A DNA stretch of 64,000 bases, taken from NCBI GenBank assembly GCA_964016885.1, contig OZ024740.1, positions 330,956,001 to 331,020,000 of the forward strand, written 5' to 3'. The first letter of the stretch is position 1; each line of letters opens with the position of its first letter. Shown piece by piece: positions 15,907 through 64,000 of the stretch. The notes under the pieces were generated by a model, which had not been told where the DNA came from, searched no databases, and saw nothing but the letters and a program-made list of their open reading frames with translations. The position numbers and the translations under genes were made by a program. The DNA comes from Eledone cirrhosa. Lineage: Eukaryota.

Positions 15907-15971
15907 TATTTCATTATACATATTTCAGGGATACCAAATTAAATTATGGTATGCCTTCATCAGACAAAATA
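15907..15971 (-). ncRNA. Minimal type I hammerhead ribozyme motif
   Basis: Minus strand: TATTTTGT CTGATGA AGGCATACCA-loop-TGGTATCCCT GAAA TATGTA TA ATGAAATA. A decayed second copy (CTAATGA core) lies ~330 bp away at ~16237-16299. Confidence 0.75.
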
Positions 15972-17039
15972 CAATATATAACAGTTTTACAAATAAGCTT
16001 CGACGTACCCTTTTAAAATGCAACCATTATTTTTGGAAGCCAACCGGATATATATATATATATATATATATATATATATATATATATATATATATATATA
16101 AGTAGAAGGGGTATTTAATTTGTTGGAATTCCGACAAATATAAATGTTTATAACTGATTTAGAGCACTCAACAGTTTACTGGCGTAAATATTCAATGATA
16201 TTAAATAAATGGAAACTATATTTATTAAACCATATTTATTTTATTATATAAATTTCAAGGCTACCAAGACACATTGGTACGCTTTCATTAGCTAAAATAC
16301 AAAGTTTGTTTTATAAATAGAGACATACCCATGGAAATCATACATTATCGGTTGAAAATTCAATGGATAGTGGCAATATATTAGGGATTTTTCAAACTTA
16401 TGTGTGAATATGCAAATGAATATGTAAATAATTGAAAACCAACCGTTTATTTAAACGACTATGGAGAGAGAGAGAAGAGATAAGAGGAGAAGTATAAAAT
16501 AGGGCGAGAGAGAGAGAGAGAGAAGAAAGAAACAAGTGAAGATGAATAAAAACTCATATAACGTTAATTTGAGGGAAATATATTGTAAGTATATATCTTA
16601 ATAGTACGTGTATTTCCGATTATTAGTTGTTTAAAATTTCTTTATAATATAATATTTTTCTTCTCTTATAAGTAGATAAATAAATAAATAAATGAATAAA
16701 TAAATAAATAAATAGATGGGTATATCGTTTTATCGATAATCGATCTAATGATTTATGAGGGATAATGGTTTTGTATTTAATGTAAATAAATATTAAGTAA
16801 AATTAAATTAAATTAATTGAGTTAATAAGAATATTTATATTTATATGATTTAAAATGGGAAGATACGGAAAAAACCCCGGTTTAATTTATTTATTCGTTA
16901 GTGTGAGACTATTTAGTCAAAATAAGTATAGATGTTGAAAGATACATTTAGCCAGAATCAGTTAGTGGTTATAAATCTATTGAAAACATATTGATTTTAA
17001 ATTATAACTGATTGCTAAATAAGGGAATTCTTTAGGATT

Positions 17040-18757
17040 TCTTCTTCTGTAAAAGATGTACCTTTACCTAAGAATAAGGACTATTTTAAACAACTCATTG
17101 AGAAATCTGACTCCTTTATACGAAGACTTAGATGGCGTGCCTTCCATCTCGATATAAAATCAGATGTAAACACAAAATCCAGTTACACAATCCAGTTACT
17201 TCGATATGATCTTCAAATCCAAGAAAGTTTCACCTAACAACAAACTATTAATGGAATTTGAAAATGAAATAATATCGATTATACAAAACATCAAATTCAA
17301 GAAAAACCAATTTGTAGGGCAGGAATACCTTGAAACCCTCAATGATAATATAGACAATCTTGAAAAAATTGAGAAGATCCTCGTAAAATCTGACAAACTA
17401 ACAATTTATACGGAATGCAAAAGGATGAATACAATAACCTTATATTGAAAGAACCAAGGAAAAACAACTAATGAAGATATTGAAATGGTAAATACAGAAG
17501 CTTCTGAAATAATTCATAAATTAGGCATCGAAAATAGGGCAGAACCCTTTATACATAGAAGACCGAAAATTAACCTGAAAGACCACAAAAGAAACTTTGA
17601 AATAGAACTACCAGTCAGACCTATAGCACCATCTAAATCAGACTTAGGCATAGTTAGTAAACATATATTAGATAGAATCATACCGCAGCTTAAAGAAATA
17701 TCTTACCTAAAACTATTGAACGGTTCAATAACATAAAATTTAAACATAAAAAAAATTCATTCAAATGTATATTGTAAACTACTACTCCTCTATTACTCCT
17801 AGTTTACTTAATAAAGCTCTTATCCATGCATCTAAACATACAGATTTATCTAGCAAAGAAATGCATATCATTTTAACTGCACGGAAAACTTTAATTGAAT
17901 TCAACAATCATCTCTGGACAAGAGCCGATAAAAAAAATAATTTTGATATCACCCTAGGATCATCTGACTCGGCGCAAATAACGGATCTTGTGGGGCTATT
18001 TATTAATAATACACTGCATAGAAAAATACCAGACATGACCGGTAGTTTATATCATGATGATATGCTGCTTTTAACTGAACATCACAGTAATTGTGAAATT
18101 AATAGGAAAAGAAAATCCATAATACAACTCTTCAATAGTTACACACTTAAGTTAGAAATAGAGAATAACTATAAAATTGTTAACTTTTTAGACGTAACAT
18201 TAAACCTTAACACAGGGCTCTATTATCTATTCCATAAAATTAATGAGAATCTAAACTATGTAAGTTTTAACTCTAATCATCCTAGATCTATCAAGAACAC
18301 TATTGTCAATTCTGTTCAACAACGGATTTCACGCATCTCCGCTAATAAAAACATGTTTTACCATAAGGCAGAATATTATAGTGAAGGTTTAAATAGAGCA
18401 GGGTATATCATTAAGATTAAATACATCGACAACAGTAATAAGGCTACTAATAACCCTACTATTAATTGTAATAATAATAACAAATTTAACTTAAACTTTA
18501 AAATTAACAGAAGAACTAGAACTAGAAATATTATTTGGTACACACCCCCATTCTCATTAAGCGTAAAAACACCTTTAGCAAAGCTATTTTTTAAAGCACT
18601 AGATAAATGTTTTACTAAAGCCCACATATAGCACTCAATCTTTAACAGACATACTATAAAACTATCCTACTCTACTACTATGAACATAGTACAAAATATA
18701 AATAGAATTAATAATAGAAATTTAAACTCTAACCAAAATAACCAAAATAGCAGTATA
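17040..18757 (+). pseudogene. Decayed Penelope-like element RT (same broad clade as 53724-56165), 3'-truncated
   Basis: KDVPLP...FIRRLRWRAFH; INLKDHK...RPIAPSKSDLGIVSK; DITLGSSDSAQITDLVGL; LYHDD; VNFLDVTLNL; SNHP; IIWYTPPF. Contains stops and frameshifts. Confidence 0.88.
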
Positions 18758-18767
18758 ATAGGGTGGG

Positions 18768-18811
18768 ACCGTCCTGACGAAGGCCAGTTAAGCCTGAAAT
18801 GTATAGACGGT
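18768..18811 (+). ncRNA. Minimal type I hammerhead ribozyme motif
   Basis: ACCGTC CTGACGA AGGC-CAGTTAA-GCCT GAAA TGTA TA GACGGT. Confidence 0.88.
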
Positions 18812-60935: not shown

Positions 60936-62284
60936 TATAAAGAAATAGAGATGAAATCGAAAATGCAACTGAAGTCTTATTTTTTTTTAAAATAGATATA
61001 TTTATTTGGTTCTTTTACCGGTTTCGCAGTTCTTCTGCTTTTCAAAAGGTGAGTTGAGATGGAGGGTCTGTGGTTTTTCTCACATCTGGTTGGTCTCTAA
61101 ATGTTACTTGTTTTATATGGAAAAAGTGGCTCGAAAGCCAGGTTTTTCGAGAAGTAAATTGATTGGTTTGTCAATAATTATAATAAATTTCGTGCCAGTT
61201 CGCGTTACAATAGTTCTTCAAATAAGAGAGGGGGGGGGGTCACAGGTTGTTTTTTCATATATGAGTGTTTGAATTTCTTTTTACTTGAAACAAGGAGGCT
61301 CACGAAGGCTTTTTTTTTGGTTGGTTATAAATGAAATTTGGCTGTCACGTGAACAAGTTTTCATTGCATTTTTGCGCCCTTATTTGGAAAACTATTCTGT
61401 AGTCTTTATAGTGAATGTTATGACAATGGAGAGATAGTGGTCAAGGGAAAAGGGATTGGGAGAAATGTTCTGGTTCAGTGAATATGGCCAGCTGTCAGAG
61501 TTCAGATTTTCTATTGAGACTGAAGATATGTGTTTATTTGTGTGCTTGTGTGTGTATATATGTGTGTGTGTGTGTGTATGTGTGTATTGGAAGATGATTC
61601 TATTAGTAGAGATGGGCGAGGGAGTTGTGTGTGTGTGTATATGGGTGTTATGTGTGTGTGTGCGAGTATGTTAAGATGGAGAGAATATATATTTTGTGTG
61701 TGTGTGTATATATATATGTGTGTAGGAAAGTGGTTCTATTAGTAGAAATGGGGAGGGAGTTGTAGGTGTGGGGGTTGTTATGTGTGTGTATGGGTGTTAT
61801 GTGTGTGGGAGTATGGTTAGCATGTTAAGATGAAGAGAATATATATATATATATATATATATTGTGTGTGTGTGTATGTGTGTGTGTAGGAAAGTGATTC
61901 CTTTAGTAGGAATATTTTTGAATGAACATATTTTCCTGACTTTTTCGTGTTTGCTCATATATGAAAAAACAACCTGTGACAACCCCCCCTCTCTTATTTG
62001 AAGAACTATTGTAACGCGAACTGGCGCGAAATTTATTATAATTATTGACAAACCAATCAAATTACTTCTCGAAAAACCTGGCTTTCGAGCCACTTTTTCC
62101 ATATAAAACAAGTAACATTTAGAGACCAACCAGATGTGAGAAAAACCACAGACCCTCCATCTCAACTCACCATTTGAAAAGCAGAAGAACTGCGAAACCG
62201 GTAAAGGAACCAAATAAATATATATATTTAAAAAAAAAATAAGACTTCAGTTGCATTTTCGATTTCATCTCTATTTATTTATAT
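60936..62284. repeat. Inverted repeat with ~330-bp arms (60936-61265 / 61954-62284) around a GT-rich spacer
   Basis: Arms give near-identical mirror ORFs (61006-61272 + and 61797-62213 -); flanked by (TA)n. Confidence 0.88.
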
Positions 62285-62585
62285 ATATATATATATATAT
62301 ATATATATATATATATATATATATATATATATATATATATATATATATATATATACATATATATATATATATATATATATATATATATATATACATATAT
62401 ATATATCGCTGCTTTCACCCTTAACGGGATCTCCATTATAATTACACTCTTCTTACTTCCACACCTCTATACCAACTGGAAACAACGCACTGATTACTCA
62501 CTACTAAAACTGGACGTTACATTCCCTATATATATATATAGTGACGAAACATAAGTCAATTGCATGAACATGAGTAATTTCTTTA

Positions 62586-62638
62586 TGCTATATAAATCTC
62601 GATGATAGCCAATGAATGGCTATGACATCATCAGGCAG
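62586..62638 (-). ncRNA. Degenerate hammerhead motif (GAAA changed to GAGA)
   Basis: Minus strand: TGC CTGATGA TGTCATAGCC-ATTCATT-GGCTATCATC GAGA TTTATA TA GCA. Confidence 0.6.
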
Positions 62639-62947
62639 TTTGTCAGTTCTTAGATATGCCAGCTCTGTGTTATAGTGTTGATGGTATCAGAGCCTTGGGA
62701 CATATGAATATATATATATTAAGATTGGTGATCTGAAATAGCGATGTATACATGAATGTGTGTATAGTATATTTGGCAATATACCCTATGTTACATTTAA
62801 AACAGTTAGTAGACAATACGCTATCAGCGAAATATATATATATATATCTATATATATATATATATATGTATAAATATATATATATATATATATATATATA
62901 TATATATATATATATATATATATATATATATATATATATATATATAA

Positions 62948-64000
62948 AATATTAAAAAAATAATGAATAAAACAATGAAACAGTTCCTTATTTTAAACAA
63001 AAAAAGTTCATTATTTAACGATCGTTTCTAGGACATATATGTGTTAGAATTGGCATGCATATTCAAAAGATCTATGTACAAAATTATACAAACTATCAAA
63101 GAGAATATATATACATACCATCACATATATATGCTGTCTTCAGAAATAATGAAGTATATTTATTGATAATAACAACAATTCAAAATTACAGGTCTGTTTG
63201 GGAACAGATTTTAAATAGACCAATGAAATACATACAAATTCATCAAGAAAATACAGTTAGGAGTGTGTATATATGTAAGTAACTTCGTTCACAGATATGC
63301 ATAAAAATGTATGTTCACATGCATACGCATGTCGAAAAAGTGTATGTAAATATAAAAATTCAGGGCTAATATCTCAGTATGTTTATAATTCACAGACAAA
63401 ATATACATACATATACATATATATATACACACATATATACACACATATACATACATTCATACACACACACGCATATATACATAAACACACACATACCTAC
63501 GAACACACACACACACATATACACACACACACACATACGTATATATTATTATTATAACTATATGGATATTTAGGCGCACACATAAACACGGCTACACACA
63601 CTTACATCTAGATGCAGAATTAAAAGGAGGTAAGGGAGTAAGTAATTAAGGAGGGTGTCAGACTCAGCATATTTATAAAAATGTATCTATAAATTTAGAA
63701 ATAAAAAGAAATATAATAAAAGAAATAAACAAGTAAAACATATACTCACACATATAAATACACACCGATATATATATATATATATATATATATATATATA
63801 TATATATATATATATATATATATATATATATATACATATATATATATGTATATACACATACGCACAACACGCATATATACATATATGTACACACACATAC
63901 ACACATACATACACATACATATATATATACACATATATATACATATATATATACACACATATATATACACACATATATATACACACACACACATACATAT
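62948..64000 (-). mobile_element. Pseudo-LTR of a diverged sister family of the 47-60 kb PLE, with the long-stem-II hammerhead at 63008-63152; continues beyond the window
   Basis: Collinear with ~47282-48100; core CTGAAGA...GAAACGATCGTT and stem I are unchanged while the flanks diverge. Confidence 0.85.

What the first reader, a model, noticed from the sequence alone, without database searches (positions are those of the whole stretch)
15907..63152. A hammerhead subclass shared by unrelated repeats: C·Y mismatch at stem II position 4 plus 6-nt palindromic stem III
Seen: hammerheads with largely different primary sequences all break stem II at the 4th pair with a 5' C. Examples: 15907 (AGG-C/C-CCT), 16237 (AAG-C/C-CTT), 26986 (TGT-C/T-ATT), 28314 (AAA-C/C-TTT), 37310 (AAA-C/T-TTT), 60278 (GGT-C/C-ACC), 62586 (TGT-C/C-ATC), and the long family at 53221/59896/63008 (CGG-C/C-CTA, CAG-C/C-CTA). 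Flanking pairs covary freely. All have six nt between GAAA and UH that are palindromic or nearly so (TATATA, TGCGCA, CGATCG, TATGTA). The hammerheads at 18768/19091 and 23097 have shorter stem III and lack the mismatch. Established: PLE pseudo-LTRs carry minimal type I hammerheads thought to cleave as dimers via palindromic stem III. Inference: the invariant mismatch is a selected feature (a tertiary contact replacing the loop I/II interaction, a dimer contact, or an RT-binding mark) defining a subclass I do not know to be described.
Basis: partly seen in the sequence, partly recalled or inferred. Interest (0 to 1): 0.88.

Follow-up and report, generated by a model that had tools for sequence, protein, structure and literature searches.

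The report
Penelope hammerheads keep an unpaired cytosine
About 100,000 copies of a known self-cutting RNA motif sit at the ends of one branch of Penelope-type jumping genes in this animal genome, and they keep one unpaired position in a helix whose neighbouring pairs have all been swapped, a detail I did not find in print that likely damps self-cutting, though cutting is untested.

Summary
The motifs are type I hammerheads near the 3' ends of Hydra-clade-like Penelope retrotransposons, with 101,035 genome matches against 271 in the control. Pair 4 of helix II is unpaired in 30 of 37 unbiased copies with a 6-nt stem III, against 0 of 36 at pair 5. Repaired C-G copies (400 against 93,329 unpaired) are no commoner than a core-killing C3G change (418). 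The repeats are not unrelated: seven verified families lie in one reverse-transcriptase branch (48-71% identity). The 6-nt palindrome is an ordinary, published helix III, and 7 of 37 such copies are paired at pair 4. The rule is wider than C·Y (also U·C, C·A, A·C). The mismatch costs about 5.5 kcal/mol and is predicted to leave the core-proximal pairs mostly open. I favour a selected brake that keeps the RNA's 3' tail intact; RNA docking or protein recognition remain open. I found no description in the papers I could read; one key paper was not held. This scan noted the same feature before on another piece of this genome (e1-8670794).

The parts
53724..56165 (+). Intact 813-aa ORF of a Penelope-like element: RT plus C-terminal GIY-YIG-type endonuclease, with RWR, DKT, CxCx5C, CxxC and CxH motifs (Hydra-clade type)
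   Evidence: the 133 best-scored genome copies are 98-100% identical, many with an open 830-aa frame
59895..60048 (+). Hammerhead in the 3' pseudo-LTR of that element; 115-nt helix II, C·C at 59915/60023, stem III CGAUCG, predicted cut after 60038; element ends at about 60111
   Evidence: tandem unit of 6,673 nt in L434
53220..53373 (+). 5' pseudo-LTR copy of the same hammerhead, C·C at 53240/53348, U16.1 lost
47344..47497 (-).
63007..63153 (-). Hammerhead of a sister subfamily (CAGC type), C·C at 63133/63032
15907..15971 (-). AGGC-family hammerhead, C·C at 15953/15930
   Evidence: ORF link in L241/L257/L258
16241..16299 (-). AAGC-family hammerhead, decayed core, C·C at 16281/16260; likely the inverted end of the element whose ORF remains lie at 17037-18694
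17037..18755 (+). Broken Hydra-type ORF of the AAGC (C·C) family, cut off by an inserted repeat
26986..27059 (+). UGUC-family hammerhead, C·U at 27001/27039; inserted here, not the end of the ORF at 25547-26095
28312..28378 (+). AAAC-GUAC family hammerhead, C·C at 28332/28353
37044..37114 (-). AAAC-ACAA family hammerhead, C·U; inverted partner of the next part
37309..37379 (+). AAAC-ACAA family hammerhead, C·U at 37327/37356, stem III UGCGCA
   Evidence: full-length element flanked by two copies in L256
60278..60331 (+). GGUC-family hammerhead, C·C at 60293/60311
62585..62638 (-). Decayed hammerhead (GAGA for GAAA), C·C at 62624/62604
33286..33361 (+).
33830..33946 (-). Counter-example: 6-nt palindromic stem III with pair 4 paired (G·U) in an 88-nt helix II
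18767..19135 (+). Two hammerheads 323 nt apart with 4-bp helix II, C-G pair 4 and 4-nt stem III; a separate inserted repeat

Best explanation
These are hammerhead ribozyme motifs at the 3' ends of one branch of Hydra-type Penelope-like retrotransposons, and the unpaired position at helix II pair 4 is likely an inherited, selected weak point that is predicted to loosen the 2-3 base pairs next to the catalytic core and so would damp spontaneous self-cutting. Shown: the location 55-80 nt before most element ends, retention of the mismatch while neighbouring pairs change in concert, the absence of any amplified repaired subfamily, and that genomic copies keep the uncut hammerhead plus its tail. 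Inferred: the RNA must keep that tail to be copied, so cleavage is held low until helix II is stabilised, most likely by the element's own protein and by pairing of two palindromic stems III. The layout (core, weak 2-3 bp link, stable distal hairpin) resembles the communication module of engineered switchable hammerheads.
For: Pair 4 unpaired in 30 of 37 unbiased 6-nt copies, pair 5 in 0 of 36, pair 6 in 2 of 36. In 16 families pairs 2, 3 and 6 are paired 16 of 16 with four pair types each, pair 4 in 0 of 16, always with a C (set enriched by pattern searches). C-G 400 vs unpaired 93,329; C3G control 418; C3G abolishes cleavage in a PLE hammerhead (PMC11167929, passages). Repair adds a median 5.5 kcal/mol; predicted pairing of pair 3 is 0.26 native, 1.00 repaired (n=16), 0.99 in 9 paired controls. 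Copies of most of the 13 groups tabulated share 54-82 nt after the cut site (two share 144 and 205), and 5' ends do not pile up at the cut site. The Anolis PLE hammerhead cleaves only with its protein, and uncut RNA is the main template; PLE hammerheads cleave poorly in vitro (PMC4209133). Two sister families with stable monomer stems III instead carry core changes (U4A in 100 of the first 100 of 18,111 matches), which fits a general pressure to damp cutting.
Against: No cleavage or binding was measured. A plain brake need not sit at one fixed pair or always contain a C. One lineage in the same branch (CUCC type) is paired at pair 4 and has spread, and long fully paired helices II occur in other families. 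Dimer dependence is already a brake. Families share an ancestor, so the 16 are not independent, and only about ten family-level changes at pair 4 are visible; none giving a pair is weak evidence alone. The equal counts show no amplified repair but could reflect few master lineages. Folding figures are nearest-neighbour predictions, and 2 of 9 paired controls also scored near zero.
Confidence: 0.4

Rival explanations
1. The 1x1 loop is a tertiary docking site that replaces the loop 1/loop 2 contact of canonical hammerheads: it opens the groove of a long helix II so that a pyrimidine from stem I can dock and speed cleavage.
For: Fixed distance from the core, one pair short of where loop 2 starts in canonical type I hammerheads; in the Schistosoma structure an extrahelical pyrimidine stacks on stem II opposite a C (PMC2632901, passage); U at 1.7, the known docking base (PMC11875169, passages), in 10 of 16 mismatch families and a pyrimidine in 13 of 16.
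Against: U1.7 is as common without the mismatch (7 of 14 and 9 of 14) and is predicted paired in 9 of 16; the 3' A of loop 2 that pairs with it is absent (pair 5 is paired in 15 of 16); no invariant base at 11 positions on either strand of stem I; stem I length runs from 4 to over 10 bp.
Confidence: 0.22
2. The mismatch is a recognition mark for the element's RT/endonuclease (or a host protein) and has little to do with cleavage.
For: Confined, as far as verified, to one RT branch; always contains a C; PLE protein acts on its hammerhead; a family with a U4A core reached 18,111 copies, so catalysis may be dispensable while the structure is kept.
Against: Five different base combinations are tolerated; the RTs are only 48-71% identical; the paired CUCC lineage lies in the same branch; C3 is conserved as strictly as the mismatch, so the core still matters in these families.
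Confidence: 0.2
3. The mismatch arose once in the ancestor of the branch and is merely tolerated; it persists because few master lineages were sampled and C-to-G changes are rare.
For: Single origin is not rejected; the published Hydra hammerheads often have C-G at this pair, so only the G changed; the 5' C (12 of 16) is no more constant than the 5' U of pair 3 (11 of 16); AT-biased mutation disfavours G.
Against: Pairs 2, 3, 5, 6 and stem I have turned over by compensatory change in the same lineages, and the freely varying pair 1 shows seven combinations without base preference, while pair 4 keeps a C in 16 of 16.
Confidence: 0.18

Closest known systems
Hammerheads of Hydra-clade Penelope-like elements (Craig et al. 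2021, PMC8557442; read: section 11, passages, File S1 and S2 tables, parts of S4/S7)
   Same: ORF motifs, (TA)n neighbourhood, hammerhead about 100 nt from the 3' end, no extra base between 9 and 10.1 in most rows, frequent U·U or other variable first pair, frequent 5' C at pair 4.
   Different: By my reading of the 26 Hydra rows of File S2, none has a 1x1 mismatch at pair 4 followed by more helix (one has a 3-bp stem closed by a loop), stems III are 7-8 nt, and helices II are short. The element here has a 6.7-kb unit; published ones are mostly under 3 kb.
Minimal PLE hammerheads (Cervera and De la Pena 2014, PMC4209133; read: main text parts 1-2 of 4, supplement parts 1-2 of 3; figures not held)
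   Same: Type I, in pseudo-LTRs, long helix II, palindromic stem III, dimer model; a 6-nt palindrome is shown for Drosophila willistoni.
   Different: Their consensus has an extra base before 10.1 and a conserved G10.1-C11.1, both absent here. 2 of 56 examples in Fig. S3 have a 1x1 mismatch at pair 4 (S. purpuratus 1, C·A; C. sinensis 2, U·U), shown as single examples, with no loop III and not in the consensus.
Canonical metazoan type I hammerheads and retrozymes (PMC7229834, passages; bioRxiv 10.64898/2026.07.22.740005, part 1 of 5 and passages)
   Same: Helix III of two pairs plus a tetraloop (6 nt); the axolotl Amex2 form has a U·U at the base of helix II.
   Different: They have a 4-bp helix II with a docking loop and sit in short tandem units; here helix II runs on for 20-116 nt past a mismatch and the motif ends autonomous elements.
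Protein-assisted hammerhead of the Anolis Poseidon element PAc (Frangieh et al. 2024, PMC11167929, passages)
   Same: PLE hammerhead upstream of the tail where copying starts; uncut RNA serves as template.
   Different: Another PLE clade; no helix II mismatch is mentioned (0 hits for 'mismatch').
Engineered switchable hammerheads with a communication module (PMC12192606, passages; the weak-link design in helix II is recalled)
   Same: Weak link between the core and a distal folded domain.
   Different: Those are artificial and ligand-gated; no ligand or switching is shown here.

Membership tests
Type I hammerhead ribozyme | Core CUGANGA...GAAA...NUH with stems I, II, III, ends open at stem I | tested here: met
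   reversed control 1 vs 68. The 150 best Rfam rows shown held no hammerhead family; 39 weaker rows were not displayed.
Type I hammerhead ribozyme | Self-cleavage after H17 | not testable with these tools
   No RNA run listed; needs in vitro assay.
Canonical (loop-docked) type I hammerhead | 4-bp helix II with loop ending in A that pairs with U1.7 of loop 1 | tested here: not met
   Helix II continues past pair 4; pair 5 paired in 15 of 16 families.
Minimal PLE hammerhead of Cervera and De la Pena | Extra base between 9 and 10.1 and conserved G10.1-C11.1 | tested here: not met
   No extra base; pair 1 is G-C in 3 of 16 families.
Minimal PLE hammerhead of Cervera and De la Pena | Palindromic stem III too weak for a monomer | tested here: met
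   Monomer hairpin +2.4 to +5.2 kcal/mol; dimer duplex +0.6 to -10.5 in 16 copies.
Hydra clade of Penelope-like elements | RWK and DKT motifs in RT; C-terminal endonuclease with CxCx5C linker, CxxC and CxH | tested here: met
   RWR, DKT, CNCRNKANC, CRLC, CNH in the ORF against the definition; by-eye likeness to printed Hydra proteins.
Hydra clade of Penelope-like elements | No CCHH finger in the GIY-YIG core | tested here: inconclusive
   Read by eye only: no CxxC in the core, but two spaced cysteines in this ORF.
Hydra clade of Penelope-like elements | Grouping with published Hydra RTs in a tree | not tested
   Published sequences could not be loaded; the trees used 110 unnamed database homologues.
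Hydra clade of Penelope-like elements | Pseudo-LTRs, tandem and inverted copies, (TA)n targets, hammerhead near 3' end | tested here: met
Hydra clade of Penelope-like elements | Generally under 3 kb | tested here: not met
   Unit of 6,673 nt for the window's intact element; the paper gives this as a tendency, not a rule.
Non-LTR retrozymes | Non-coding short tandem units, each with a hammerhead | tested here: not met
   Seven mismatch families end protein-coding elements; other families have no ORF link yet.

The most novel reading that the evidence does not exclude
A natural protein-gated hammerhead: the C-containing mismatch is a communication module, and the element's own RT/endonuclease binds the long helix II, closes the core-proximal pairs and switches cleavage on only when it no longer costs the RNA its copying tail.
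Probability: 0.2. Interest if true: 0.75.

Novelty: new variant of a known kind. Interest (0 to 1): 0.45.

Why it matters
Why PLEs carry poorly cleaving hammerheads, and how they avoid cutting off the tail they need for copying, is open. Here one base change separates native from repaired RNA, nature has already sampled the neighbours, and a young element with many intact ORFs supplies the protein. That makes a clean test of protein-assisted or damped cleavage. Descriptors that demand a continuous 4-bp helix II would also miss about 100,000 motifs in this genome. The feature itself is a structural detail of a known ribozyme in a known clade, so far seen in one genome.

Tried and rejected
1) ORF-hammerhead links by nearness alone. 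Five of my first links were wrong or unsupported (4-nt type at 18774, UGUC, 8-nt type, UCUU, and AAGC in L243): they are insertions. The trees carry those wrong labels, and the AU rejection (p 1e-83) is void; one search replaces it. 2) Repeated nested losses of the mismatch: withdrawn for the same reason; one paired lineage remains. 4) No RNA holder listed. Contigs of three runs were laid; in the deepest no variant at 5% or more fell on the four mismatch bases of 59905 and 60283, which is weak. 5) Rfam gave only microsatellite look-alikes in the rows shown; Pfam gave no hit for the 813-aa ORF. 6) Conserved tertiary partner in stem I: none specific. 7) Dimer contact through helix II: no test run; helices II stack on stem III and should point apart (inference). 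8) The 4-nt pattern also caught 6-nt copies, so its count is not used. 9) Lünse et al. 2017 (small PLE hammerhead variants that cleave as dimers) is not held; I know it only from citing text and recall, and it could show this feature. Figures of all papers and bioRxiv supplements were not seen.
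Full report
Observation. The window is 33% GC, rich in (TA)n, and lies in a 3.0-Gb genome. 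Ten listed copies have C·C or C·U at helix II pair 4, and two unlisted ones do too. Three listed copies are decayed. The copies at 18774 and 19097 have C-G at pair 4 and a 4-nt stem III. One window copy (-33941) has a 6-nt palindrome and a paired pair 4.

Not chance. A pattern with C and Y at pair 4 matches 101,035 places against 271 for the reversed pattern. With another 5' base there are 15,520 matches against 9,703 control, and with C opposite a purine 5,876 against 2,658, the latter including a multi-copy C·A family. With a tighter stem III, C opposite A, C or U gives 93,329 and C opposite G gives 400. The same pattern with the core C3 changed to G gives 418, so repaired copies are as rare as copies with a change known to kill a PLE hammerhead (PMC11167929). 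The first 100 repaired copies are scattered over many families, as expected from mutation after insertion.

Unbiased tally. I scanned the window and 60 stretches of 10 kb (20 of them flanking the window) with a descriptor that ignores pairs 1 and 4 but requires pairs 2 and 3 and scores 5 and 6. It found 68 hammerheads against 1 in reversed DNA: 17 with 4 nt, 37 with 6, 8 with 7 and 6 with 8 nt in stem III. Among the 37, pair 4 is unpaired in 30 (26 C·Y, 3 A·C, 1 loop of a short stem) and paired in 7; pair 5 is unpaired in 0 of 36 and pair 1 in 21 of 37. Among the other 31, pair 4 is unpaired in 1. Inverted pairs and family copies are not independent.

Families. 216 distinct copies, partly chosen by pattern, fell into 44 merged families of 4, 6, 7 or 8 nt after four odd rows were dropped. 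Sixteen have the mismatch: C·C 8, U·C 3, C·U 2, C·A 2, A·C 1. Pairs 2, 3 and 6 are paired in 16 of 16, each with four pair types, and pair 5 in 15 of 16. Fourteen 6-nt families were classed as paired; two of these are single mutant copies of mismatch families and one has a very short stem. U at 1.7 is enriched overall (26 of 44, p 6e-4 against 34% background) but not specifically with the mismatch (10 of 16, 7 of 14, 9 of 14).

What carries them. The ORF at 53724-56165 has the RT and endonuclease motifs that define the Hydra clade, sits between two copies of the long hammerhead, has an inverted truncated copy next to its 5' end, and is young: the 133 scored copies are 98-100% identical. I first linked other ORFs to hammerheads by nearness and got five links wrong, because these elements insert into one another. 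Links that held, by flanking copies or by continuous matches in several loci, are CGGC (window, L434), AAAC (L256), GAUC (L419), AACA (L197), AGGC (L241), GGAC (L421) and AAGC (9 of 12 fetched copies of the 17037 family). Their RTs are 48-71% identical. In the corrected tree all seven lie in one branch (81/93), five in a strong sub-branch (99/95). That branch also holds one paired lineage (CUCC), one element with no hammerhead seen and three unnamed proteins. Two changes suffice and one clade is not rejected (p-AU 0.076). The other mismatch families have no verified ORF.

Mechanism. Copies of most groups keep 54-82 nt after the cut site, and 5' ends in the window's family do not pile up at it, so the copied RNA was uncut at its 3' hammerhead. 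In the one PLE studied in vitro, copying starts in the tail, uncut RNA is the main template and cleavage needs the protein. The mismatch costs a median 5.5 kcal/mol and lowers predicted pairing of pair 3 from 1.00 to 0.26. Two sister families with stable monomer stems III have altered cores instead. I therefore rank a selected brake first (0.40), then RNA docking (0.22), protein mark (0.20) and tolerated inheritance (0.18). The fixed position and the constant C are the main trouble for a plain brake and are best met if protein or RNA docks there.

Known and unknown. Hydra-clade hammerheads are published but, by my reading of 26 rows, have 7-8 nt stems III and no such mismatch. The 6-nt helix III is standard. 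Two of 56 published PLE examples show a 1x1 mismatch at this pair without comment. Eight full-text searches and look-ups in PMC3088659, PMC6765202, PMC7229834 and the 2026 retrozyme preprint (passages) gave no description of a conserved C-containing mismatch at pair 4. Lünse et al. 2017 was not held, and figures were not visible. Verdict: a real new variant of a known ribozyme in a known clade; interest 0.45.

Noticed in passing
window cores +21735, +25227, -24284; ORF remains 25547-26095; L203, L244, L245: A Hydra-type family ends in a hammerhead-like fold with core CAGAAGA (U4 replaced by A) and a stem III stable as a monomer; 18,111 genome matches, A in 100 of the first 100. A large family thus spread with a change at a normally invariant core base.
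   Followed up: partly
window about 45700-45830; ORF remains 44674-44922; L183, L187, L249: Sister family ending in a variant hammerhead with A at position 8 (U3-A8 in some copies, a covariation published for Schistosoma PLEs) and a stable monomer stem III.
   Followed up: partly
window 18767-19135: Two canonical-looking hammerheads 323 nt apart, inserted into a PLE; retrozyme-like. Another 4-nt family forms 311-nt tandem arrays.
   Followed up: partly
L234, L105, L117, L205, L211:915, window -33941: Long-helix 6-nt families with G·U or G-C at pair 4 keep the 3' pyrimidine; they may be ancestors or revertants of the C·Y type. No ORF link found.
   Followed up: no
L242:1363-6500, L246: Hydra-type ORF inside the mismatch branch with no hammerhead recognised in 2.5 kb downstream.
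   Followed up: no
window 56165-60111: The intact element has a 3.9-kb 3' UTR full of (CA/TA)n-like repeats that is copied with it; tandem unit 6,673 nt.
   Followed up: partly
window 3774-8571: Remains of a non-LTR retrotransposon (endonuclease PF03372, zf-RVT PF13966).
   Followed up: no
window 35226-35687: GIY-YIG fragment (PF01541) of a different PLE type, within an inverted repeat 34594-36343.
   Followed up: no
window 15438-15637: Assembly gap of 200 N.
   Followed up: no
window 31939-32452 and 60129-60196: Decayed inverted pair of the paired CUCC-type family, and a short palindrome carrying hammerhead-like core words on both strands.
   Followed up: no
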